Virus record (IMG/VR): IMGVR_UViG_3300037296_000405
DNA from: an uncultured virus (IMG/VR IMGVR_UViG_3300037296_000405)
Taxonomy: Duplodnaviria; Heunggongvirae; Uroviricota; Caudoviricetes
Direction: 5' to 3' (one strand)
Length of the DNA stretch: 64,000 bases
Shown: positions 11,779 to 57,259 of the stretch, piece after piece
Position numbering within the stretch: position 1 is the stretch's first letter
Layout of the letters: every line of letters begins with the position of its first letter
The notes under the pieces: model-generated
Databases searched by the model: none
What the model was told of the DNA's origin: nothing
What the model saw: only the letters and a program-made list of their open reading frames with translations
Translations under genes and position numbers: made by a program

Positions 11779-12477
11779 TTAGTCAATAGATGAGTATTTT
11801 ATCTTATAGCCTTTTCCGTATACGCTCTCTATTATTGATGTTGGGTATAATTGTTTTCTGATTGAAACTATGTGAGTGTCTATATTCCTGTCATTAACAA
11901 AAACATCATTCCCTAGTATTATTTTGTTAATATCTTTTCTTGAAAATATTTTATTTGGATTTTGAAGTAATAGAAATAAAATCTTGAAAGGAGTCTCTTG
12001 AAATTTGAACTCTTTATCTTGAAGGGAAATTTTTTGTTCTGAAGGGAATATATTGATATCTTTATATGAAATAGTTTTATCATTTATAAATATTTTATTA
12101 TGAATTAAGTGGTTCTTTATTTTAAGTTCTAGAATTTCTAAAACTCTAGGTTTAGATTTGTCTAAGAAGTCTAAAGCTCCAACAGAAAGAGCCTTAAGTA
12201 TTGTAGGCGGATGAGTTATTCCAGATAATACAATTATAGGGATTTGACTTAATCTACTTTTCTCTTTTGACCATGAACAAAAAGTACAAGCGGTTTCTTC
12301 TAAAATATTCCAATCCAAAAGAAATAAATCAAAGTGTTGCTCATCTACAATTTTTTTAGCATCTTTAATTGAAGAAACATGAACAAAATCATACGGAGAG
12401 TCTTTAAAATGAAGATCAACAATCTCTTTAAAATCATTAGAATCCTCTACGTACAATATTGAAAAACTTTTAGTCAT
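11779..12477 (-). CDS. OmpR/PhoB-family response regulator
   Basis: REC (VED, LLD, LSG, DFLDK) plus winged helix (SRKDI, RNIDTHIVSIRK, VYGKGY). Confidence 0.92.
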   Translation of the reverse strand: MTKSFSILYVEDSNDFKEIVDLHFKDSPYDFVHVSSIKDAKKIVDEQHFDLFLLDWNILEETACTFCSWSKEKSRLSQIPIIVLSGITHPPTILKALSVGALDFLDKSKPRVLEILELKIKNHLIHNKIFINDKTISYKDINIFPSEQKISLQDKEFKFQETPFKILFLLLQNPNKIFSRKDINKIILGNDVFVNDRNIDTHIVSIRKQLYPTSIIESVYGKGYKIKYSSID

Positions 12478-12522
12478 TAAATTATTTTAGTAAAATAATA
12501 TAAAAAAGTCAAATAAAAGTGA

Positions 12523-13323
12523 TTAAACCGATGGAATGTTCATATAATCAAAGAAAACACCTTGAATTCCCGGAGATTTTCCTTTTTTTGTAACGTACTT
12601 AAAAACTTCATTTGACATTTGGCAACCACACATCCATACCATGCTTGGGAAATGTCTTTGAAATTCAAAATTGATTATCTTATCTACAATATCATCAGAT
12701 AGAATATTATCACTAGGAAAGTGCTTTCTCGTGTATTCAATATCTTTCTTTAAACAAGCCTTTCTTATTTCTTCAGTAAATTCATCTGAATGTTTGAGAT
12801 CTTTACTAGGATAGCCCATAAAGTCTTCTGGAGATATTTTTGAATTAGGCTCTACAACAAAAGTATTTACAACAGGAGTTAACCAAGCATCTACCATAAA
12901 TTTATTTTGTACATGAACTTCTCTTCTTAATAATATTGAATGTGCAATATCATCTATCCCATTAACTATCACCGTATGTGATTCCACTAGTTTAGAACGA
13001 TTTTCGTCAGTAATTCCTTCAGGAAGTTTAACTATTTTTACGTTAGGATTTATAGATTTGAAGTTCTCTACCAGCACATCAATTTTATTTTTATTTAAAT
13101 TTGTAGTATTACAGTAAATCTGTCTATTTGTGTTTGATATTTCAAAATAGTCAAAGTCAGCTATAGTAAAGTTTATAAATCCAAGTCTAACTAGTAATTC
13201 ACAACAAACGCCACCCATACCCCCAACACCAGCAACTAGTACATTTTGTTCTTGTATTTTTTTAAATTCATCTTTAGAATAAAAGTCAAAGCTTCTATTA
13301 AACATCTCTTCATTTGTGTACAT
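12523..13323 (-). CDS. ThiF/HesA/MoeB-family adenylyltransferase without Zn CxxC motifs
   Basis: GVGGMGG, DFDYFEISNTNRQ, NKID. Confidence 0.9.
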   Translation of the reverse strand: MYTNEEMFNRSFDFYSKDEFKKIQEQNVLVAGVGGMGGVCCELLVRLGFINFTIADFDYFEISNTNRQIYCNTTNLNKNKIDVLVENFKSINPNVKIVKLPEGITDENRSKLVESHTVIVNGIDDIAHSILLRREVHVQNKFMVDAWLTPVVNTFVVEPNSKISPEDFMGYPSKDLKHSDEFTEEIRKACLKKDIEYTRKHFPSDNILSDDIVDKIINFEFQRHFPSMVWMCGCQMSNEVFKYVTKKGKSPGIQGVFFDYMNIPSV

Positions 13324-13324
13324 A

Positions 13325-14119
13325 TTAATCTCCTTTGATTAAGTTAAAGCTTGATTTCTCAAGTATTTTTTTAAAGTTTTCATAAGATTTTTGGTTCATC
13401 ATTCCAATTTGAATAAGGTCTTCACCTTTAGTTAGGTCAATCCAGAAGTTAACAAAAAGAAGTTGATTTACATCATGATGACGAGGAAGGTCTCTTATGT
13501 TAGTTCCAAAACCCATTTCTGAAAGAGGTGATTGTAAGACGAATCTTTTTAAATTAAGTGTTATTCCACTTGGAAATAAAGGAACTATATATTCTTGATA
13601 AAGGAGTGAACAGAAATCTTTATATTCTTTAGGAGGAAATTGAAGGTTTTTGCTATAGTAATTTGGCCAGACATCTTCAAATATTTCAGATACAATTCCG
13701 ATAATATTCGGTACAGTCGATATATTAGATATATGATATTCTTTACCAAAGTATTCATACATTAATGCATTAGAATATAAATAAGGAATTTTTAATAAAT
13801 CTAATCCACTATTTTTAAAGATCATAACTAGACCTTGGTGAACAAAAGGTTTATCTTCAGCTATTATTACATTGTAGAAGAAACCACAAACTTCATTGTC
13901 TTCATTGTAATAAACAGCTAATAATATTTTACTGAAAAAGTCTAGTATCTCTTGTTTCGAGATATTTTCTTTAAAGATTCCATACTTTAGGTCATTACCT
14001 GAAGCTTTATTTACATAACAAAGTTCCTTATAAAGAGATTCAGTTAAGCTTGGATTACTTCCGGGCTTAATGTGATAATTGATCTTGTAGTTCTTGTATT
14101 GAGTTGTATATTTTTTCAT
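13325..14119 (-). CDS. hypothetical protein, possible GNAT/acyltransferase fold
   Basis: beta-rich LAVYY...VCGFFY...FVHQGLVMI followed by helix; coupled to ThiF; fold is inferred. Confidence 0.5.
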   Translation of the reverse strand: MKKYTTQYKNYKINYHIKPGSNPSLTESLYKELCYVNKASGNDLKYGIFKENISKQEILDFFSKILLAVYYNEDNEVCGFFYNVIIAEDKPFVHQGLVMIFKNSGLDLLKIPYLYSNALMYEYFGKEYHISNISTVPNIIGIVSEIFEDVWPNYYSKNLQFPPKEYKDFCSLLYQEYIVPLFPSGITLNLKRFVLQSPLSEMGFGTNIRDLPRHHDVNQLLFVNFWIDLTKGEDLIQIGMMNQKSYENFKKILEKSSFNLIKGD

Positions 14120-14160
14120 ATTGATTAAATATAAAATAGCAAAAATATAGATTGAACTTG

Positions 14161-14216
14161 AATGTTATTTAACATTGTTTTAACATTGTAAATTGATAAG
14201 ATCACTTTAAAGTGAT
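14161..14216. promoter_or_regulatory. tandem 11-bp direct repeat TTTAACATTGT x2 plus 16-bp palindrome ATCACTTTAAAGTGAT
   Basis: repeats at 14168-14178 and 14179-14189; palindrome 14201-14216; divergent promoter region. Confidence 0.65.
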
Positions 14217-14227
14217 ATAATATAAAA

Positions 14228-15385
14228 ATGAAAGAGGATAAAAATAAAATTTTTATAGGTTCAATTCTTTGCTTATTCTATTCAATACTAACTGTTTGTT
14301 TTGAGTACGAATCAATAATTCCTATTTATAGTAAACTATTTGTGGGAACAAAATCTATTATAATTTTATGCTACGTGTTAATTATAGGATTAATAAAGTT
14401 TGATAAAAATGTAAATATTCTTAGTGTTCAAAAGTTTTTTATAATAACGACTGCGGTGTACTGTTGTGTTGGTGAGGTTTTTTATCCGGGGTATCATTTA
14501 GCTTATATACAACTTAATATAGTGTTACCTCTAGTTTATTCTGTTAGTAAGAAGTTTAATACCCGATTTATTATTATTTTTGCTACATCATATCTAGGTG
14601 TATTTAATTATTTTAATTTACATGAGCAAAAAGAATCTTATGCAAACTATATATTTGATATAAATACTGCTGTAATAACAGTAGCTATGTTAACTTTGTT
14701 TTTATACTTGTATGTAGATGCTATAAAGAAAGAAAAGACTATTATCGATAACCAATTTAAAAAACTAGGAAAAAATTTAAGTAGAGTTGTTCACGATATT
14801 AAATCGGGGATTCAGGCACCCGTTATGATGGTAGATGATTTAATTCAAAATAAGTCAGAATATAGTCCAAGTGAATTCGATAGCACTTTAGTTGATGTTA
14901 AAGATTTTCTTGGCGATATACAATTAGATTTAAGAAATGTTAACTCTTTCTTTGAAGTTATAAATGATAAAGAAGATAATGACATGTCTATAATTACGAG
15001 TAAGCTATCAGAGGAATACAAAATTCAAAACCCTGATAAGAAACTTTTACATCTAAGTATTAAAGGAGACAATTCTATTAATTTTAATAAAAAACTACTA
15101 GAATCAGTCATTAGAAATTTAATCTCAAATTCTTTCTATTATGGTAAATCTGAATTTTTTATAGAAATTAATATAAAAAATAATACGATGAAATATTTAG
15201 ATTCTAATGGTGGATATCCCGTAGAAGTATTATCGAATATAAACAAGGGTATTCCAGTCAATTCCAATAGAAGTGATGGTAATGGTGTAGGTCTAGTTGG
15301 AATTAAAGAAGTTTTAGAAGATTGCGGAAGTAAGATATATTTTTTTAATAAAGGAGAAAAAGCATGTGTAGAAATAGTATTTTAA
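14228..15385 (+). CDS. membrane sensor histidine kinase (about 5-6 TM input domain)
   Basis: hydrophobic N-half; HDIKS H-box, NLISNS, DSNGG, GNGVGL. Confidence 0.88.
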   Translation: MKEDKNKIFIGSILCLFYSILTVCFEYESIIPIYSKLFVGTKSIIILCYVLIIGLIKFDKNVNILSVQKFFIITTAVYCCVGEVFYPGYHLAYIQLNIVLPLVYSVSKKFNTRFIIIFATSYLGVFNYFNLHEQKESYANYIFDINTAVITVAMLTLFLYLYVDAIKKEKTIIDNQFKKLGKNLSRVVHDIKSGIQAPVMMVDDLIQNKSEYSPSEFDSTLVDVKDFLGDIQLDLRNVNSFFEVINDKEDNDMSIITSKLSEEYKIQNPDKKLLHLSIKGDNSINFNKKLLESVIRNLISNSFYYGKSEFFIEINIKNNTMKYLDSNGGYPVEVLSNINKGIPVNSNRSDGNGVGLVGIKEVLEDCGSKIYFFNKGEKACVEIVF

Positions 15386-16437
15386 AGAAAAAAAATATTT
15401 TGGTTGTAGACGATGATCCTAAGATTGTAAAGGTTCTAAAAAGAGTTGCCAGTAGAAATTTTAATGAAGTTTATACAGCATATTCGGCTAATGAGGCTAT
15501 AAAGATTTTAGAGACAGAGATTGTTGATTTAGTTTTAACCGATTACGAAATGAAAGAAGGTGATGGAATCCACTTATCAAAGAATATAAAAGACAAATAT
15601 TTAATTCCATTTGTAGTAATGTCTGGAAAATTAACGAAAGAAGCTATGTTTTCTTTCTCTAATAATGGATGTTTTAAGATGATGGAAAAACCATTTGATT
15701 TAAAAGTGTTTAACTCTTTACTTGAAGAGCTAGAAGATTTCTTTACCAAAGAGAACGAGAGCCAGTCATTAATAGACTTAGGAGAATCTCTTGGGTTTAT
15801 AATTCATGAGATAGCTAATCCTTTAACTGTTTTAGATTTTAACTGTTCAAGGGCAAAAAGATTTCTTGATGATGAAGGTATTGAAACTGTAGAGTTAGAT
15901 AAATTACTGAATGTAACTCATCAAAATGTAGAAAGGATTTCTAAAATAATCACTAATATTAGAGACGTAATGTCTTTCTCATCCAAAGACCAAAGAAAAA
16001 CTGAATACGCATTAAGTTTTATATCTAATGAATTAGAAAATAACGATTACATAAAAATGCTATCTTCAGATTTAAATATAGTTTATGAAGGTTTTGGTGA
16101 GGAAGTTATTAATGTTAATTTAGATCAAATAGTTTTACTATTTACTAATATAATTAAAAACTCTCAAGAAGCTATTGGTGTAGGAAATAAAGGTTATATA
16201 AAAATTAATGCTAAGGAATCTGATGGAAAATTTAATTTTATAATTATCGATTCAGGTCCGGGCGTAACGGAAGAGCAAGCAACGAAGTTGTTTAAGAAAA
16301 GAGTAACTTTTAAAAAGAACGGTACTGGATTTGGTTTTGAATTATGTAAGAAAATTGTTGAAAATCATAAAGGCTCTATTGCCGTAGAAAATAATTATCC
16401 AATGACATTAAATTTGTCATTATCAAAAGCTCAATAA
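15364..16437 (+). CDS. hybrid receiver-histidine kinase (REC-HisKA-HATPase)
   Basis: VVDDD, LTDYEM, HEIANPL, NIIKNS, DSGPG, GTGFG. Confidence 0.9.
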   Translation: MCRNSILKKKNILVVDDDPKIVKVLKRVASRNFNEVYTAYSANEAIKILETEIVDLVLTDYEMKEGDGIHLSKNIKDKYLIPFVVMSGKLTKEAMFSFSNNGCFKMMEKPFDLKVFNSLLEELEDFFTKENESQSLIDLGESLGFIIHEIANPLTVLDFNCSRAKRFLDDEGIETVELDKLLNVTHQNVERISKIITNIRDVMSFSSKDQRKTEYALSFISNELENNDYIKMLSSDLNIVYEGFGEEVINVNLDQIVLLFTNIIKNSQEAIGVGNKGYIKINAKESDGKFNFIIIDSGPGVTEEQATKLFKKRVTFKKNGTGFGFELCKKIVENHKGSIAVENNYPMTLNLSLSKAQ

Positions 16438-16458
16438 AATAAGGAAAAGGAAGTTGTT

Positions 16459-16734
16459 TTGAGAAATGATAAAATGTTTAAAGTTTTAATAGGATATTCA
16501 GAAAGAAATAAAGGCTATCCAAAAGATATACCTTGGTCTATTGTTGAACCTTTTGAGTCAAGAGCTAAAAAGAATCATAGTCAAAGTTTAATTGAGTTAA
16601 ATGATCGAGGCGGATTAAGTATAGAAGAATTATATTGCTTACTGAATGACCAAGCGACTCATTGGTATTTTAATGATGACTCAAAAAATATAAAACATGC
16701 TTTAGAATTTGTGAAAAGTAAAATCGTTAGTTAA
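16459..16734 (+). CDS. phage-type hypothetical protein
   Basis: ORF with IPW...NHSQSL..L..RGGLS..E pattern. Confidence 0.6.
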   Translation: MRNDKMFKVLIGYSERNKGYPKDIPWSIVEPFESRAKKNHSQSLIELNDRGGLSIEELYCLLNDQATHWYFNDDSKNIKHALEFVKSKIVS

Positions 16735-20998: not shown

Positions 20999-21087
20999 TA
21001 TAATTCAAATTAAAGTAAGTAAATTTTTAATGAAGCAATATTAATATAGTATATTATATAATTATAACTATTACAAAGGATTATTAA

Positions 21088-21285
21088 ATGGCGAAGAAAA
21101 AAGAAACAAAACTGGAAAAAGCTCAAAAATTTGCTTTTGAATTTATGTTTATGCAAAATGATTGCGGAGGTTCAGCAGTACAAGATTTTGCAGAAAATGA
21201 TGAGGATTGGGAAGATGAAGACATAGATGAAATTATGGCTACCCTTAAAAAACAGTATAAAGACCATGATAAGTGTTACGGATAG
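21088..21285 (+). CDS. small acidic protein
   Basis: AAGGA RBS. Confidence 0.65.
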   Translation: MAKKKETKLEKAQKFAFEFMFMQNDCGGSAVQDFAENDEDWEDEDIDEIMATLKKQYKDHDKCYG

Positions 21286-22844: not shown

Positions 22845-23385
22845 TTTATCATTAGAAGTAAACTTAGATGATTTTTCGATAGATTTTCTAAAAAAAAATA
22901 ATCAGAGGTTGTATTACTTTGGTCTAGGGTTTATCCAATTAAAATTAACAGATAATCATAGAGTTCACTTTTATACTGATCAACTAGACAATAATACAGA
23001 TTCTATTCATAATCATAGATATGATTTTTCTTCAAAAATATTAAAAGGTACATTTTGTAATAAAATTTTTAATCAAGTCAAAGGCTCTGATTACGTATTA
23101 GTTAATGAAAGTTGTAATCCTGATATTGATGCCCCTGAAGAGAAAGAGACCTGTTCAGTAATAGAAATATCAAAAATTGAATATAGAACTAATGATATTT
23201 ATCAAATGGACCATAAGAAATTTCATCAAGTGTCATCTAAATATGCTGTAACTATATTAGAACGTTCTGATTATAAGCAAGAGTTTGCTCAGATTATCTA
23301 TAAAAAAGGAGAAGAGAGAAATTGTCCTTTTAAAATAAAGAATGAAGATTCAGTATTGTGGGAAATAATAAGGAGTATGTTATGA
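22831..23385 (+). CDS. cupin/double-stranded beta-helix protein
   Basis: IHNHRYDFSSKILKG and later FHQV. Confidence 0.65.
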   Translation: MEKDNLSLEVNLDDFSIDFLKKNNQRLYYFGLGFIQLKLTDNHRVHFYTDQLDNNTDSIHNHRYDFSSKILKGTFCNKIFNQVKGSDYVLVNESCNPDIDAPEEKETCSVIEISKIEYRTNDIYQMDHKKFHQVSSKYAVTILERSDYKQEFAQIIYKKGEERNCPFKIKNEDSVLWEIIRSML

Positions 23386-23963
23386 TTGATTACAAAAAGA
23401 TTGCAGATAGTATTTCTTTTTTTGATAAAGAAAATTATAAAAGGATAGAAGCTCCTTGGTGGGTCAGTCAGGATATTTCTAATATTACAAAGCCGAAAGA
23501 AGAGCAAGCTAATGATTACTTTATTAACCAGAATCAGAAATCACTTGTAGCCTCTGGTGAACAATCCTTTCTTTACCTCGCTAATAAGGGAAGGCTTCTA
23601 GAAGGTCAGTATCAGACGACAACACCTTGCTTCAGGAATGAGTCAATAGGAGTTCTTCATAAGAAGTGTTTTATTAAGAACGAGCTTATAAAGACCGATA
23701 AAGTTACAAAGACAGAGTTAGATAAAATGGTCGATATTGCATTTCAATTTTTTCTTAATTATTTTGATAAATCTGACATAGAAATAATTGAAACAGATAA
23801 GAATTCTTATGATATCCAAACTATGAATTTAGATAAAAATATTGAGCTTGGATCTTATGGGATTAGAGATTGTGAATTTCTTGAATGGATATATGGAACT
23901 GGATGTGCAGAGCCTAGATTAACTAGGGCTATTAAAATTAATGAAAAATATAAAAGTAAATAA
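23382..23963 (+). CDS. stand-alone class II aminoacyl-tRNA synthetase-like catalytic core
   Basis: motif 1-like IEAPW, LVASGEQ, motif 2 PCFRNE, ELGSYG, motif 3 GTGCAEPRL; no anticodon domain; ATGA overlap. Confidence 0.8.
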   Translation: MIDYKKIADSISFFDKENYKRIEAPWWVSQDISNITKPKEEQANDYFINQNQKSLVASGEQSFLYLANKGRLLEGQYQTTTPCFRNESIGVLHKKCFIKNELIKTDKVTKTELDKMVDIAFQFFLNYFDKSDIEIIETDKNSYDIQTMNLDKNIELGSYGIRDCEFLEWIYGTGCAEPRLTRAIKINEKYKSK

Positions 23964-45229: not shown

Positions 45230-45649
45230 ATGAGAAATCTAATATTAAAAATAGACATTAAAACTTTAAGGTGGGATTTCTTTCGAGGAAGCGGTAAAGG
45301 TGGACAGAAAAGAAATAAGACAGAAAATTGTTCAAGATGTACTCATATAGAATCTGGTGCGCAAGGTAAAAGTGAGTCTGGACGTTCTAAAGAACAGAAC
45401 AAAAAGAAATCAGTAGATAGGATGGTTGAGAACCTCGTTTTCATTGATTGGTCTCAGAATTTTATCAATAATCACGTTAAAGAAGAAAGGATATTAGATA
45501 TATCAGTCGAAGAAGATTTTATTCTATTATTTGATTTAGGCAAGTACGAGGCTCCTAAGCGAAAGAAAATTAAAAGGAAGCCCGTTGTTAAGGATAGAGT
45601 TAAAGAAGACCGCAGAAGCTCTAAAAAAGACCTTAAAGACTTTAATTAG
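45230..45649 (+). CDS. RF-1 (GGQ) domain peptidyl-tRNA hydrolase, ArfB/PrfH-like
   Basis: RGSGKGGQKRNKT, H..SG, RS...NK; basic C-terminal tail. Confidence 0.88.
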   Translation: MRNLILKIDIKTLRWDFFRGSGKGGQKRNKTENCSRCTHIESGAQGKSESGRSKEQNKKKSVDRMVENLVFIDWSQNFINNHVKEERILDISVEEDFILLFDLGKYEAPKRKKIKRKPVVKDRVKEDRRSSKKDLKDFN

Positions 45650-46722: not shown

Positions 46723-47003
46723 TGGATGTAATTAAATATAATTTTCCTCAACTAACAGAGCATCTTCCAGATATTGGCAATGATATTATCGGTTACGCAA
46801 CTTTGAGGCCAAAAATTCATATAAGTCATAATGGAATGTCCTATGTAGACAATAGTGATCCTGTCATATTAGAAATAGTTGGCTTGGCATATAACCAAAA
46901 TTGTGATAAAATATACATATCTAATGAATATTGGAGAGGGACTACTTTAAGAAAGATCGTCAGCGAAAAAGAAATTATAATATTTATTGAAAATAAAGGA
47001 TAG
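46722..47003 (+). CDS. hypothetical protein
   Basis: TAATG coupling. Confidence 0.65.
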   Translation: MDVIKYNFPQLTEHLPDIGNDIIGYATLRPKIHISHNGMSYVDNSDPVILEIVGLAYNQNCDKIYISNEYWRGTTLRKIVSEKEIIIFIENKG

Positions 47004-47007
47004 TTTG

Positions 47008-47508
47008 ATGGCAGGAAATAGTGCAAAAACTAAGCAAGTAATATTGATGCGAGAAGATTTAAATATAACTTCGGGAAAGATGATAGCTCAGGGTTCACAT
47101 GCGTCCGTTTCAGCTATATTAAATAAAAATAATTCAAAAGATATTAAGAATATTAATATCAATATTAGCGAAGAAGAAAGTGAATGGTTTAATGAAAGAT
47201 TTACGAAAGTTGTTTTGGGTGTTAAAAATGATATTGAATTAATGATGTTTTATGATTTAGCAAAAGAAAAAGGGTTAAATGTTTCAAAGCCTATTATTGA
47301 TGCAGGATACACTGAACTTAATGAGCCTACACTTACCTGTATAGCAATTGGACCAAACAATATAGAAAGAATAAATGAAGTAACAGGAAGTCTTAGAGTT
47401 TTTTCAGGAAATAATAAAGAGAAAAAAATTAGAAGGTTGTTAAGGAAGTTTTTGAAAAAAGAGAATAATCTAGATATAAAAAAACAAATAATGGAATCAT
47501 TAGAATAG
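47008..47508 (+). CDS. pth2: peptidyl-tRNA hydrolase, Pth2 family
   Basis: KQVILMREDL, GKMIAQGSHA, KVVL, IDAGYTE, TCIAIGP. Confidence 0.92.
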   Translation: MAGNSAKTKQVILMREDLNITSGKMIAQGSHASVSAILNKNNSKDIKNININISEEESEWFNERFTKVVLGVKNDIELMMFYDLAKEKGLNVSKPIIDAGYTELNEPTLTCIAIGPNNIERINEVTGSLRVFSGNNKEKKIRRLLRKFLKKENNLDIKKQIMESLE

Positions 47509-52853: not shown

Positions 52854-53732
52854 ATGACTTCAAAAAAAAACTCTTACCCCTATAAAAACTTAGTTATATT
52901 AATTATTGCTGTTTTTTGGACTTTAGCTATTCCTAAATTTTTAACTTATTTTTTGATTGGTGAAGATGTCCCCTTATGGAACCCAATGTTTTTGATAGGA
53001 TATCCTCTGATTCTTGCGAGCGTGGTTACTTTTTTTGATAAGATAAGTTCAAATGCAGATATTATATTCAGGACAATACTTTTATATATTATCTTTAATA
53101 GTTTTTTTCTTGTTTCAGGTTTAGTTAAAACATTACCTCAAAATAACAAATTAAATAATAAGACATTTGTAGAAGTTTATAATTTGTGGGAAGGAAGTTT
53201 TTTTGACTACAATTTTTATATGAAAATATACACGAACGTATTAAAGGAAAACAATTCTTTGATAAAATTCGGAGAGCCTAATTCGAATAAGACAGCTAAG
53301 CTCCTAGGTCATTATATTTCTTTAGTTAAAATAAATAGAATAAAGGATGAGATAAGCTTGTCTGGAGAAGTGAAAGATGTAATATTGAAACTAAAAAGAG
53401 GGGAAGATATTTTTAATAAATTCTACTCAAATTTAAAGTATAAAGATATAATATTTATTATAGAAAAAGATGAATTTAAAATAAGTGAGATTGATTGCTC
53501 AATCGCTAACAATATCATTGATAATATGATAATTAATAATAATATATCTAATAATAAGTTTTATGAAATCATTTATGTATTCGAAAATAAGAAAACTGGT
53601 TGTATTGATAAGAAAATACTAGAAAACAATAAAGAATCTATCTCTAATAACCAAGACATTTTTTGGTTTAATAAATTGAAAGACTTGAATCCTTATTTCA
53701 ATGAACTGTTAAGGAATAGTTATGCTAAGTAA
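52854..53732 (+). CDS. membrane protein (3 TM N-terminus)
   Basis: hydrophobic N-terminus. Confidence 0.7.
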   Translation: MTSKKNSYPYKNLVILIIAVFWTLAIPKFLTYFLIGEDVPLWNPMFLIGYPLILASVVTFFDKISSNADIIFRTILLYIIFNSFFLVSGLVKTLPQNNKLNNKTFVEVYNLWEGSFFDYNFYMKIYTNVLKENNSLIKFGEPNSNKTAKLLGHYISLVKINRIKDEISLSGEVKDVILKLKRGEDIFNKFYSNLKYKDIIFIIEKDEFKISEIDCSIANNIIDNMIINNNISNNKFYEIIYVFENKKTGCIDKKILENNKESISNNQDIFWFNKLKDLNPYFNELLRNSYAK

Positions 53733-54915
53733 AAGTATAAATAATTACATTATTAAAAAGTCGGAAGATTATTTTATTGAAGAGAAAAAAAACATACTGT
53801 TTCTTAAGAAGAGTGAATTAGAATATTTATTTGTTTTTGTTATTTTGTACTCACTGGCATTAATTATTCCTTTAATTAATATGACAGGTGAAGTTTCTTT
53901 AACGTCAGTTCTATTTGATTATTTTTTTATAGTAGTTCCTATAATATTATTAACAATTGGGCAAATGAAGTCTAAAAAAATAATCATGCTACATTATTTA
54001 GTTTTTTGGAATAAAAAAGAAAGGGAAGAAGAAGTTGAAGCTTATGTATCTAATAATAGTGATAATTTAATTAGTTTAATGAGCAGTAATTCAGAGCAAG
54101 AATCAATTAGACATGATACTTTAGATAAAAAAGTTGATTTGTACATTAAAAATATTGACATATTTTGTAAAGAGCATTTGTTGGATAATAATAGCTTAAA
54201 AAGATTTGTTAAAGAGCGTCTACAAAGTGAAACTAATGAGAATAGAGCATTTATTTTATGGTGTATGATAATTCCAAATAAAGAAGAATTAAGTCTAGAC
54301 GGATTAAAATTTCTTATAAGTCAGAATAGAATGAGTTTTTATAATTATGTAGCATTTAAGCAACAAGGAAAAGAATTTATTCATAGTATACTAAGCAATC
54401 AGATACATTGCTTTAAAGATTTTTCAGAAAAAAAACTAAAGAGGGTTTTTTCAATAAATTATGAATCTTCAATATTAATGGACGTTTTAATTTTTTCATA
54501 TAATAATGATTTCATCATTCCAAATAGATTGAAAAACTTAATTGAGATTGAAAAATTTGTAGAGTTAAATAAAGATTTAATTAAATTAAATAATGAAAAA
54601 TTAAAACAAGTTAATAGAAATCCTAGATTGTATTTTATTGAGAATAAAAAATTTAGAAATTTAAAATTTATTGTCTTAGATGATACTGAAGATTTAATCA
54701 GTTGGGGAGTTGATTTAAGTAACTGTATTAAAACTTATAGGGATAGATGTCTAAATGGTTACTCATATTTACTAGGAATTTATAAAGATGGAAAAAAATA
54801 CGGGAATATAGAATTAGATTGCAATAATAAAATAGTTCAAATACGAGGTTTTGCCAATAAGCCTTTAGATGAAGAATCAGATATTAAAGACATTGTAAAT
54901 TTAGTCTTGTTTTAG
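53722..54915 (+). CDS. membrane-anchored PcfJ-like protein
   Basis: 2 TM; LISWGVDLSNCIKTY...NIEL...VQIRGFAN. Confidence 0.75.
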   Translation: MLSKSINNYIIKKSEDYFIEEKKNILFLKKSELEYLFVFVILYSLALIIPLINMTGEVSLTSVLFDYFFIVVPIILLTIGQMKSKKIIMLHYLVFWNKKEREEEVEAYVSNNSDNLISLMSSNSEQESIRHDTLDKKVDLYIKNIDIFCKEHLLDNNSLKRFVKERLQSETNENRAFILWCMIIPNKEELSLDGLKFLISQNRMSFYNYVAFKQQGKEFIHSILSNQIHCFKDFSEKKLKRVFSINYESSILMDVLIFSYNNDFIIPNRLKNLIEIEKFVELNKDLIKLNNEKLKQVNRNPRLYFIENKKFRNLKFIVLDDTEDLISWGVDLSNCIKTYRDRCLNGYSYLLGIYKDGKKYGNIELDCNNKIVQIRGFANKPLDEESDIKDIVNLVLF

Positions 54916-55040: not shown

Positions 55041-55874
55041 ATGATAATATTAAAAACAGTAAGTCAAGAAGATGCGAAAAAATTAATTGTCAAAAGAGAT
55101 GACTATATCGAAGAGTTAACTGTATTTAATATAAAAAAGATAACTAAAAATAAAATTGACAATAAAGACGGTTTTATGGATTTCTTACCTAGCGCTTGTA
55201 TTCAGTGGAATGAAGAATCAAAAAAGAAAATATCTAGCATAGAGGCAACAATAAATTATCAATTTGATGAATTAGATTTTAATTTTTCTATGGAAATACA
55301 TCTTGTTAGAACAAATGGAGAGGACAGTTTTAATTTACCTTACACTAGAGATAATATTATATTTTTACCAGAAAAAGAAAATAAAAAAGAGAAGTTAGCT
55401 CACCTAAATGTTCATTTAATTACTCATGAAATATTTCATATTATAAGTAGGAGATATCCTCAAATAAGAGAAGTGTTATATCCTTTGATGGGATTCAAGA
55501 AGCTTTCAAATAGATTTGATATGGAAAAAAATCTTCCTAGGTATGTAGTTAATCCAGATGCTGTTCATTATGAATATGCAATTAATGTATTATACAATCT
55601 TACTGAATATAAAGCTATTCCAGTTATTTACTTTAAAAAGAAAAAAATGAAGTGGGAGCACTTGTTATTACTAGATGAAAATGAACAGGTGCATTCTATA
55701 GTTAATAGAAATGAAACAAATTTTTTAAATAATAAATACAATACTCATTACTTATCTCATCCAGAAGAGATTTGTGCTGAGAATTTTAGAAAGTGGATCT
55801 TACAAGATGAAGACATTGATAACGAATTATTACGTACAAATTATGGAATAGCTTTAAAGGAGTTGTTTAATTGA
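55041..55874 (+). CDS. HExxH Zn-metallopeptidase-like protein
   Basis: THEIFHIISR, NPD, HPEEICAENF; AGGAGG RBS. Confidence 0.75.
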   Translation: MIILKTVSQEDAKKLIVKRDDYIEELTVFNIKKITKNKIDNKDGFMDFLPSACIQWNEESKKKISSIEATINYQFDELDFNFSMEIHLVRTNGEDSFNLPYTRDNIIFLPEKENKKEKLAHLNVHLITHEIFHIISRRYPQIREVLYPLMGFKKLSNRFDMEKNLPRYVVNPDAVHYEYAINVLYNLTEYKAIPVIYFKKKKMKWEHLLLLDENEQVHSIVNRNETNFLNNKYNTHYLSHPEEICAENFRKWILQDEDIDNELLRTNYGIALKELFN

Positions 55875-57259
55875 AGGCTATTGATTTTTTAAAGAAAGTT
55901 CAAAAATCTAAAGAACCAGACGATGTGAAAATGCATATCGAAGACTGGGTTTTAAATAATTTTATTTTAAATACTGAAGTAAAAGAACTAGATGATTTAT
56001 CAATGAAAGAAGCTCTTGATAATGCGAATTTATGGATGTTGGATTTAGGTGATAGTGAAAAAATAGAATTAGGAGAAGTTGAAGAGATATTAGACTTTGG
56101 AGAAATGAAACTTATTTTACTGATAGACCAAAAATCCTTTGGTTGGGAAGGATTTCACATGAAACATTGTGTGAAGTCTTATTATAAAAAAAGTGAAGAG
56201 GGTTTATCTAAAGTATATTCTCTTAGAAAAAAAGACTACGACATTCCTGTTTGTACATTCGAAATAGAAAATGAAAAACTAATTCAGGTTCATGGACGAG
56301 GCAATGGGAAAGTATCTCCTAAGTATTTTGATACAATAATTACATGTCTAAGTCATTTGAAAGTTAGTGCATCAAGATATGTTGAAAAAATGGGGTACTT
56401 AATATTAACTCCATATATAAAAAAACAATTAATGTACTATTTTAGTGGAATTACAATTAGGAATATTCAAGAAATAGAAGTTATCTACGTACTAAGTGAA
56501 GTTAAATTTAAGAAACATATTAATATTCAAGACAATCGATTAGGAAAATTTATTTTTTATATAATATCTAAACAGCCTAATATGAATCTTTTTATGGATT
56601 TATAGAATAATTGTTGCTTTGAAGAAGAACAACTGCCTTATTTAGTTATTATAAATTGGAGAAACAGTAAATTTCTAGATAAAATAGATGATTTAGGTAT
56701 TGTCTACTATGAGAATAACAAGTATCAAAATAGGCATCAAGACAAACTGAATTTCTTTTGTGAAATATCTAAAGAAAAAGAAATAAAGTTTTTTAGTAAT
56801 GACTCGTTCCTTCAAGATTTAGTTCAGCAAATGGGTGTATCTGATTTTTATGGTTTAAAAGTTATGAGAGATTTTCCTATAGACAAAGAGAAGTTTATAA
56901 TTCTTTGGAATACATTTTTAAAAAAATTTAATGATAATAATTTATTTCCTTTTCCTAGATTAAGAGTTTTTTGGTTGTTTGCCGATGGATTGAATGAAGG
57001 TGTATTAGATGCAACAATAAAATACTTAGATTTAAATATTAGTTTTTCGGCTACGTATCAATATTTTAGGTTAGAACAGGTTAAAGATAGGATTGATGAA
57101 ATTATCAAGAAAGGACATAAGACATATGCATTCAAATTAATTTTTTATATATTAGAAAATATGTCTATTGAAGATAATGAGTCATGGTCTGAATACAAAG
57201 CTAATATAGGCTATAATCGAGAAGCAGTTAAAGCTATCCTAAGTCCTCGAAATAAATAA
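55871..57259 (+). pseudogene. PcfJ-like protein interrupted by one in-frame TAG (56603-56605)
   Basis: EGFHMKHCVKSY...YSLR...TFEI...QVHGRGN; frame stays open 75 codons past TAG into ORF 56831-57259. Confidence 0.7.

What the first reader, a model, noticed from the sequence alone, without database searches (positions are those of the whole stretch)
11779..16437. Candidate phage-borne signal synthesis and sensing circuit: GNAT-like + ThiF + OmpR regulator, divergent from two histidine kinases
Seen: a compact five-gene island. The minus strand carries an unknown 264-aa protein, a ThiF adenylyltransferase 1 nt downstream of it, and an OmpR/PhoB regulator. The plus strand carries a multi-TM sensor kinase overlapping a REC-HisKA-HATPase hybrid kinase. 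All phospho-relay residues (His, Asp, Lys, G boxes) look intact. There is no ThiS/MoaD/ubiquitin partner or cofactor gene nearby, and the ThiF lacks Zn CxxC motifs. Known: ThiF enzymes adenylate carboxylates, N-acyltransferase plus ThiF pairs can make small acyl-amino-acid derivatives, and membrane-embedded input domains sense autoinducers (CqsS, LuxN, AgrC). Inference: the element may make its own diffusible signal and sense it, as a quorum-like lysis/persistence or host-control switch distinct from arbitrium peptides.
Basis: partly seen in the sequence, partly recalled or inferred. Interest (0 to 1): 0.85.

Follow-up and report, generated by a model that had tools for sequence, protein, structure and literature searches.

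The report
Phage-borne acyl-signal maker and sensor
A large uncultured virus of bacteria carries five genes that probably make a small fatty-acyl amino-acid signal and detect it, a kind of chemical communication kit otherwise found in predatory bacteria, which would let the virus count infected neighbours or steer its host.

Summary
The five genes are there as described, inside jumbo-phage-like DNA. The 264-aa orphan has a GNAT fold (AlphaFold pLDDT 92, Z 10.8) but belongs to an unnamed family, not LuxI or FeeM. All 19 related loci with a close homolog have a ThiF gene within 2.5 kb, and two natural fusions exist. Of the 17 loci with enough flank, 16 have a sensor next door, of three unrelated kinds: this 6-TM kinase, a soluble-input kinase, or a LuxR-type regulator. 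One Vibrio locus has none. In several relatives the ThiF is a full-length homolog of AclA, the cyclase of N-acyl-cyclolysine quorum signals, and AclA is the top Foldseek hit of the window's ThiF. Both kinases' best genome hits are the cassette genes (4 of 4). A second 223-kb phage carries a separately acquired version. The OmpR regulator is not conserved in relatives. An 11-bp-period repeat lies in the divergent promoter. Best reading (0.55): an ACL-like make-and-sense circuit taken from Bdellovibrionota. Product, ligand and output are untested, and nothing supports a lysis/lysogeny switch. The scan earlier noted similar logic (FeeM-like enzyme, ThiF, kinase) in CPR bacteria.

The parts
13325..14119 (-). 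264-aa GNAT-fold acyltransferase of an unnamed family (predicted first synthase step: N-acylation)
   Evidence: No Pfam/NCBIfam/PHROG/PADLOC hit; ESM Atlas GNAT 0.95; AF2 pLDDT 91.7; 11 Foldseek matches at E<=1e-3, those listed all acetyltransferases; VIA Z 10.8, rmsd 3.3, 165 aligned to FdhC; conserved H94, G96, L97, P137, P152, F204, F222, G239 in 71 homologs
12523..13323 (-). ThiF/E1-like adenylyltransferase without Zn site or N-terminal extension (predicted second step: ATP-dependent activation and cyclisation)
   Evidence: Pfam ThiF; ATP motifs R10, G32-G38, D56, N66-R67-Q68, K80, D124 and subfamily motif D145-x-W147-x-T149-P150, R223; Foldseek top hit AclA 9EGB, E 1.8e-13; VIA Z 26.2 over 238 residues, tied with E. 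coli ThiF 26.4 over 223
11779..12477 (-). OmpR/PhoB-family response regulator (predicted output; phage-lineage addition)
   Evidence: Pfam REC + Trans_reg_C; best NCBIfam PhoB, 125 bits against cut-off 296; one close homolog, 48%, on an 835-bp contig; not found in related cassette loci
14228..15385 (+). Sensor histidine kinase with about six TM helices and no extracytoplasmic domain (predicted receptor)
   Evidence: Six hydropathy peaks across 6 homologs; conserved intramembrane Y78, G82, P87, Y89, L91, A92, D144; weak 6TM_PilS-like feature match 0.91; best genome hit is the cassette gene in 4 of 4 cassette genomes
15364..16437 (+). Soluble REC-HisKA-HATPase hybrid kinase (predicted relay)
   Evidence: Pfam; best genome hit is the cassette gene in 4 of 4 genomes, 116-139 bits against at most 82 for others
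14168..14189 (+). Tandem 11-mer TTTAACATTGT x2 with 11-bp period, candidate OmpR/PhoB-type binding site in the divergent spacer
   Evidence: 55 of 20000 shuffles of the spacer give such a repeat, motif noticed before the test; 4 such places in the window; only match of TTAACA-N5-TTAACA in the window; not seen in 19 upstream regions of relatives
14193..14221 (+). Sigma-70-like promoter for the kinase pair (TTGATA-17-TATAAT, extended -10) with a 16-bp palindrome in its spacer (14201-14216)
   Evidence: Best of 34 sites (11/12), though the scan as a whole finds fewer than shuffles, 42.4; the palindrome alone is unremarkable (817 of 20000 shuffles; 15 in the window against 8-22 in shuffles)
12484..12512 (-). 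Sigma-70-like promoter candidate for the response regulator
   Evidence: 10/12 match in the 45-nt spacer; consensus match only

Best explanation
A two-enzyme small-molecule signal synthase with its own sensor relay, captured by a jumbo phage from Bdellovibrionota (host probably Bacteriovorax/Halobacteriovorax-like). SHOWN: folds, motifs, conserved linkage. INFERRED: (1) the GNAT N-acylates an amino acid or amine from an acyl-CoA/ACP; (2) the ThiF adenylates the carboxylate and closes a ring (lactam as in N-acyl-cyclolysine, or oxazolone), giving a neutral lipophilic molecule that leaves the cell; (3) the molecule binds in the 6-TM bundle of the kinase; (4) phosphate passes from H189 to D60 of the hybrid kinase, whose H148 feeds D55 of the OmpR regulator; (5) the regulator binds the 11-bp-period repeat in the divergent spacer (feedback) and other, unknown phage or host promoters. 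The phage would thus read the density of infected or kin cells, or join its host's own signalling.
For: ThiF within 2.5 kb in 19 of 19 loci with a close GNAT homolog (>260 bits; L008/L009 are duplicates and L006 a near copy). Two GNAT-ThiF fusions, P0068 and P0076. Sensor adjacent in 16 of 17 loci with enough flank, of three unrelated types: 6-TM kinase (L001-L005), soluble-input kinase (L047-L055), LuxR HTH (L008/L009). In 401 genomes of the phylum, a kinase lies within 165 bp of the enzyme genes in 12 of 12 close hits and 0 of 20 distant hits. The same GNAT family pairs with full-length AclA homologs (L001 ThiF vs 9EGC E 1.4e-30, residues 2-239; 9EGB is AclA). L008 has the ACL layout of LuxR plus two enzymes described in PMC13080023. 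Distant GNAT relatives sit in ThiF + nitroreductase operons like OxzAB (6 of 20; PMC12596934 section 4). Both kinases are best hits of the cassette genes in 4 of 4 genomes. A second phage (G001, 223 kb, portal and primase genes) has ThiF, 6-TM kinase and GNAT from other branches.
Against: No product, ligand or expression data. The 12 close genomes are about two lineages, so independent events are few. Vibrio sp. THAF64 has the enzyme pair without an adjacent sensor. The 6-TM input family also occurs without synthase (19 of 23 genomes hit; 18 such regions read), so it is not dedicated to this signal. In the kinase tree the window's protein is a long branch outside the synthase-linked clade. The window's own ThiF is not an AclA ortholog by sequence: only the N-terminal half matches, and the family profile ranks TcdA first. 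The regulator is absent from related cassettes and scores lower against regulators beside 6-TM kinases than against several others. The kinase profile used for the adjacency count was built partly from these same kinases, and some distant loci are cut by contig ends.
Confidence: 0.55

Rival explanations
1. The enzymes make an effector metabolite (antibacterial, lipid, surfactant, oxazolone-like), and the adjacent kinases only switch the operon on in response to an unrelated cue such as phosphate or envelope state.
For: The regulator's best family is PhoB. The spacer repeat resembles Pho boxes: 11-bp period, TT(A/T/C)ACA in B. subtilis (PMC11870197). A sensor-less pair exists in Vibrio. 6-TM kinases occur without synthase. 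The role of oxazolones is unknown (bioRxiv 2020.06.11.147165).
Against: Three unrelated ligand-type sensors recur beside the pair, including LuxR as in ACL. No transporter, immunity or tailoring gene is conserved. The PhoB score is far under the cut-off and no PhoR-type PAS kinase is present.
Confidence: 0.2
2. One-way host manipulation: the phage makes (or jams) the host's own signal to push neighbouring predator cells into a state that favours infection; its kinases rewire host regulators rather than count phage.
For: Host-like genomes carry the same enzyme pair with their own kinase (9 loci) and orphan 6-TM kinase + OmpR pairs (9 of 9 regulators tested). Precedent proposed for phiCDHM1 agrBDC (PMC7790227).
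Against: The phage keeps a complete relay with its own regulator and a candidate feedback site; its enzymes form a separate clade and may make a different product.
Confidence: 0.12
3. The pair modifies a macromolecule (tRNA as TcdA does, or a protein as E1 enzymes do), for example as counter-defence.
For: The family profile ranks TcdA first in the PDB. Weak matches to CBASS E1-E2 models in the ATP-binding half. The window is rich in RNA repair and translation genes.
Against: Those matches cover only the shared ATP-binding half. No Zn motifs, E2, JAB or Gly-Gly carrier. The pair is chromosomal beside sensors in bacteria.
Confidence: 0.07
4. Recently captured or mis-assembled host DNA without a role in the phage.
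For: The four-gene set is mostly bacterial; no RNA evidence; no contig in the read check spans the whole region.
Against: GC3 matches the flanks; all five ORFs are whole; contigs from other runs bridge the right border; the enzymes are at most 59-61% identical to any relative and form their own clades; a second phage has a separate acquisition.
Confidence: 0.06

Closest known systems
N-acyl-cyclolysine (ACL) signalling of Bacteroidota (AclA, PDB 9EGB/9EGC/9EGD; Linares-Otoya 2025, seen only as cited in PMC13080023 and PMC13419125)
   Same: Two enzymes beside a dedicated sensor; ThiF without Zn site; AclA is the top Foldseek hit; relatives use full-length AclA homologs, one with LuxR.
   Different: Sensor is a 6-TM kinase relay, not LuxR; window ThiF is a separate subfamily; hosts are Bdellovibrionota and phages; the second ACL enzyme could not be compared.
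OxzAB / TyzABC oxazolone synthases (PMC12596934 section 4; bioRxiv 2020.06.11.147165)
   Same: N-acyltransferase followed by ThiF adenylation and cyclisation of a small molecule.
   Different: No nitroreductase in the window (only distant GNAT relatives have one); no receptor is described for oxazolones in the passages read.
Phage quorum genes: arbitrium, phiCDHM1 agrBDC, VP882 VqmA, an uncharacterised phage LuxI-LuxR pair (PMC7790227, parts 1-2 of 3 read)
   Same: Phage-encoded signal production and/or detection.
   Different: Not a peptide or AHL; synthase, membrane kinase, relay kinase and DNA-binding regulator are all present; the phage looks T4-like (rIIA) with no lysogeny genes in the window.
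CqsA/CqsS and LqsA/LqsS type circuits (recalled, not tested)
   Same: Synthase next to a six-TM kinase that senses a lipophilic signal in the membrane.
   Different: Different chemistry (PLP enzyme there); no sequence match of the input domain to a named family was found.

Membership tests
ACL system | AclA-type ThiF cyclase over full length | tested here: inconclusive
   Window ThiF: top Foldseek hit but 19% identity, VIA tie with ThiF, sequence match only residues 10-135; separate clade. Met for L001.
ACL system | Adjacent LuxR-family receptor | tested here: not met
   No GerE/LuxR hit among the island genes; met only in L008/L009 and the Riemerella locus.
ACL system | Second enzyme of the ACL acyltransferase type | not testable with these tools
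   Primary paper not held; the Riemerella aclA-like locus has no GNAT homolog nearby.
ACL system | Produces secreted N-acyl-cyclolysine | not testable with these tools
   Needs LC-MS.
OxzAB/Tyz oxazolone synthases | Nitroreductase domain or gene with the ThiF | tested here: not met
   ThiF is 266 aa, single domain; no nitroreductase among neighbours.
LuxI / FeeM acyl synthases | Match to Autoind_synth, FeeM or Acetyltransf_5 profiles | tested here: not met
   No Pfam hit at E 0.1, whereas a control FeeM-like protein hits all three; hhalign probability 0.25%.
GNAT superfamily | GNAT fold | tested here: met
   distant homologs L063 and L075 hit Acetyltransf_1.
GNAT superfamily | Acyl-CoA binding and transfer | not testable with these tools
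   Fold only.
ThiF/MoeB sulfur-carrier activators | Two Zn CxxC motifs and a Gly-Gly carrier | tested here: not met
   all NCBIfam ThiF/MoeB scores below cut-off.
RiPP ThiF enzymes (MccB, PaaA) | N-terminal precursor-binding domain and precursor gene | tested here: not met
   Model aligns to MccB only from its residue ~90; spacers hold only 5-16 aa ATG frames overlapping the promoter.
Two-component phosphorelay | His, N and G boxes; Asp, Ser/Thr and Lys in receivers | tested here: met
   the TM kinase G1 box is non-canonical.
Arbitrium | Peptide precursor and TPR receptor | tested here: not met
   No such gene among the five.

The most novel reading that the evidence does not exclude
A probably lytic jumbo phage of predatory bacteria runs its own non-peptide quorum circuit: a new acyltransferase family plus ThiF make a cyclised acyl-amino-acid, a 6-TM kinase relay reads it, and a phage-added OmpR regulator adjusts infection (lysis timing, host behaviour). 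The same cassette would be an undescribed autoinducer system of Bdellovibrionota, taken up by phages at least twice.
Probability: 0.35. Interest if true: 0.92.

Novelty: new variant of a known kind. Interest (0 to 1): 0.77.

Why it matters
Phage communication described in the review read (PMC7790227) is peptide-based, receptor-only or incomplete. A phage with a small-molecule synthase and a full kinase relay would extend it to large, apparently lytic phages of Gram-negative hosts. The cassette also gives a testable candidate autoinducer for predatory Bdellovibrionota and extends ACL-like chemistry beyond Bacteroidota, with an unnamed acyltransferase family and three interchangeable receptors. 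Named isolates carry the genes (Halobacteriovorax ThiF records; Vibrio sp. THAF64), so the chemistry can be tested without the phage.

Tried and rejected
No whole genome is held for the window, so capsid, terminase and integrase genes outside it were not checked. INPHARED phages: no match for the GNAT or ThiF; hybrid-kinase matches are generic. IMG/VR scans found only G001, nothing for the window-type ThiF, and only distant ligases when looking for sister phages; the deep alignment could not be used for such a scan. The GNAT-ThiF complex prediction gave no answer. General repeat and terminator scans gave nothing beyond chance. The palindrome 14201-14216 is not significant window-wide. No 11-bp-period repeat in 19 upstream regions of relatives. 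The idea that the regulator is the ortholog of regulators beside orphan 6-TM kinases was not supported (the comparison set was chosen as best hits, so it is biased). No tRNA genes. Paper searches for this gene set and for Bdellovibrionota autoinducers listed nothing describing it; the library lacks most subscription papers. Sequence look-ups among earlier scan notes were empty.
Full report
OBSERVATION. The TM kinase is divergent: HATPase_c scores just under the cut-off and HisKA is not hit, but H189, N297, N301, D325, G328, G351 and G355 are invariant in six homologs. The ThiF has no CxxC and the window has no small Gly-Gly-ending ORF.

SETTING. The window reads as jumbo-phage DNA: rIIA (E 1e-46), three RNA ligases, a Pnkp-like gene, a nucleotidyltransferase and many short unknown ORFs; the source contig is 248,888 bp. 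No structural, integrase or repressor gene was hit among the 74 ORFs scanned (44, 30), so phage status rests on gene content. GC3 of the island matches the rest. Runs X2-X4 (salt lake metagenomes) hold short contigs, mostly 99% or more alike, over island and flanks; one bridges 13888-14501 and one 16133-16516; none spans the whole. The phage NAD ligase is 46-47% identical (563-596 bits) to the ligase of three of five genomes tested and 31-32% to the other two, against at most 241 bits for solved ligases. Two of those three genomes carry the enzyme pair, with ThiFs that group with NCBI-named Halobacteriovorax proteins. A Bacteriovorax/Halobacteriovorax-like host is therefore likely; this is inference from one gene.

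THE 264-AA PROTEIN. No profile library names it. It has 78 relatives among 50% representatives. The AlphaFold model (pLDDT 91.7) matches GNATs: Foldseek best E 9e-5, VIA best Z 10.8, with RpaI (9.0) and FeeM (8.8) among many near-ties. A profile comparison with a FeeM-like protein is negative. It is a GNAT of an unnamed family.

THE THIF. The top single-sequence PDB hit is 9EGC/9EGB, N-terminal half only. Foldseek names 9EGB as 'AclA from Tenacibaculum discolor in complex with substrate' and ranks it first (E 1.8e-13, TM 0.74; next 4.9e-11). VIA ties it with E. coli ThiF, and the family profile ranks TcdA first. So the window's ThiF is its own subfamily (156 proteins), not an AclA ortholog.

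NEIGHBOURHOODS. Nine loci came from pattern scans, 32 hits from 401 genomes of the phylum of G003 (three are L002-L004, the other 29 were all fetched), and one from plasmid records (three near-identical Vibrio records, one read). Nineteen loci have a close homolog (>260 bits); all 19 have a ThiF within 2.5 kb. L002-L005 have the four-gene set (GNAT, ThiF, 6-TM kinase, REC-kinase) in three gene orders, none the window's; L111 has three of the four at a contig end. L047-L055 have kinase-ThiF-GNAT in a row, the kinase with a soluble input domain that Pfam does not name. L008/L009 (one sequence twice) have a LuxR-type regulator upstream. L006 and L007 are cut by contig ends. Vibrio THAF64 has no adjacent sensor. 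Among the genome hits, a kinase lies within 165 bp in 12 of 12 close and 0 of 20 distant loci (two at 2.8 kb). Caveats: the 12 are about two lineages, the kinase profile was built partly from these loci, and several distant loci are truncated. Six of the 20 distant loci have a ThiF in an operon with a second GNAT, a membrane protein and a nitroreductase-like gene (Pfam checked for L060 only). P0068 and P0076 fuse the GNAT to an AclA-type ThiF. L001, L006, L008 and L077 also use the AclA-type ThiF; L001 matches AclA over residues 2-239 at E 1.4e-30.

ORTHOLOGY AND HISTORY. Searched against whole genomes, both window kinases hit the cassette gene best in 4 of 4 cassette genomes (the fifth genome has no cassette). 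In a quick tree, however, the TM kinase is a long branch beside two orphan kinases, a join the tool flags as doubtful. The 6-TM input matches 23 of 401 genomes, four strongly, all four beside a ThiF; the weaker ones lie mostly beside OmpR regulators (9 of 9 tested) without synthase, like LuxR solos. The window GNAT sits in a supported clade of ten metagenomic proteins and its ThiF in a clade of six; whether these are phages could not be checked. The IMG/VR record G001 (223 kb, head-tail connector, portal, primase) carries ThiF, 6-TM kinase and GNAT from different branches, plus a lone REC protein 120 kb away: a separate acquisition by the trees, not tested with a formal clade test.

REGULATOR AND SPACER. 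The regulator has one close homolog and is absent from related cassettes. The 108-bp divergent spacer holds an exact 11-mer repeated at 11-bp period (55 of 20000 shuffles, noticed before testing) directly upstream of the best promoter match. PMC11870197 (passages) gives Pho boxes as 11-bp-period repeats, TT(A/T/C)ACA in B. subtilis. This fits feedback by the phage regulator, or control by a host PhoB-type protein.

MECHANISM. See Best explanation. Shown: folds, motifs, linkage, fusions, sensor swapping. Inferred from ACL and OxzAB: acylation then ATP-dependent cyclisation. Inferred from anatomy: ligand binding in the TM bundle and the relay order. Unknown: substrate, targets, effect on infection. 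Nothing here supports a lysis/lysogeny switch.

LITERATURE SEEN. PMC12596934: outline and sections 14 and 21. PMC13080023, PMC13419125, PMC11870197, bioRxiv 2020.06.11.147165 and bioRxiv 2026.07.27.740950: passages. PMC7790227: parts 1-2 of 3. The ACL paper (doi 10.1038/s41586-025-09418-9) is not held; that ACL synthesis is lysine acylation plus ATP-dependent cyclisation is recalled from its abstract. No supplements were read; the ACL supplements may list non-Bacteroidota homologs and could reduce novelty. CqsS/LqsS comparisons are recalled. Searches (listings only) showed no description of this cassette. Two earlier scan notes describe similar logic in CPR bacteria with FeeM-like enzymes; my ACL-like reading was recorded before and they are not counted as support.

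VERDICT. Real, conserved and well anchored as an enzyme-pair-plus-sensor cassette; works like ACL signalling but fails membership tests for ACL, OxzAB, LuxI/FeeM and arbitrium. New variant of a known kind; signal-and-sense reading 0.55; interest 0.77.

Noticed in passing
L050:3116-5807, L052:3059-5751, L054:6908-9737: Next to the cassette lies a second kinase with a heme-oxygenase-like (Haem_oxygenas_2) gene and an unnamed 230-248-aa ORF, possibly another synthase-sensor module.
   Followed up: partly
L056, L059, L060, L061, L068, L070: Operon of distant GNAT, ThiF, second GNAT, membrane protein, nitroreductase-like gene and, in L060, a RoxA-like cytochrome c: a candidate oxazolone-like biosynthetic cluster.
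   Followed up: partly
L047:3707-5098 and L048-L055 equivalents: Histidine kinases with a conserved soluble ~200-aa input domain that Pfam does not name; by recall it resembles AraC-type ligand-binding N-termini.
   Followed up: partly
L112-L129: Orphan 6-TM kinases with OmpR regulators and no synthase, possible eavesdropping receptors.
   Followed up: partly
P0068, P0076: Natural GNAT-ThiF fusions on ~3-kb contigs with long low-complexity linkers; origin unknown, possibly eukaryotic transcripts.
   Followed up: partly
L079:1324-6043: Rhizobium plasmid: membrane PAS-GGDEF-EAL protein, FeeM-like synthase and AclA-like ThiF in a row.
   Followed up: partly
L078:5992-7499: AclA-like ThiF convergent with a LuxR HTH gene, with no acyltransferase recognised nearby.
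   Followed up: no
L001:9162-16514; L110:1480-1818: Phage G001 has a 2451-aa polyvalent protein (Acb1/ligase-like, ParB-like, GNAT, NUDIX pieces) and a lone REC protein right after the portal gene.
   Followed up: no
window:29386-31476, 53722-54912, 55871-56602; L001:2452-3849: Several PcfJ-like proteins in the window that resemble one near the cassette of phage G001.
   Followed up: no
window:31529-32509, 45230-45646, 46987-47505, 23358-23960: Translation-related cargo: Trp-tRNA synthetase-like and peptidyl-tRNA hydrolase-like ORFs (by eye), RF-1-domain protein, short His-tRNA-synthetase-like protein.
   Followed up: no
window:10769-11044 and 21052-21273: Runs X2 and X3 share clusters of differences here but few inside the island, hinting at strain variation in the flanks (low depth).
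   Followed up: no
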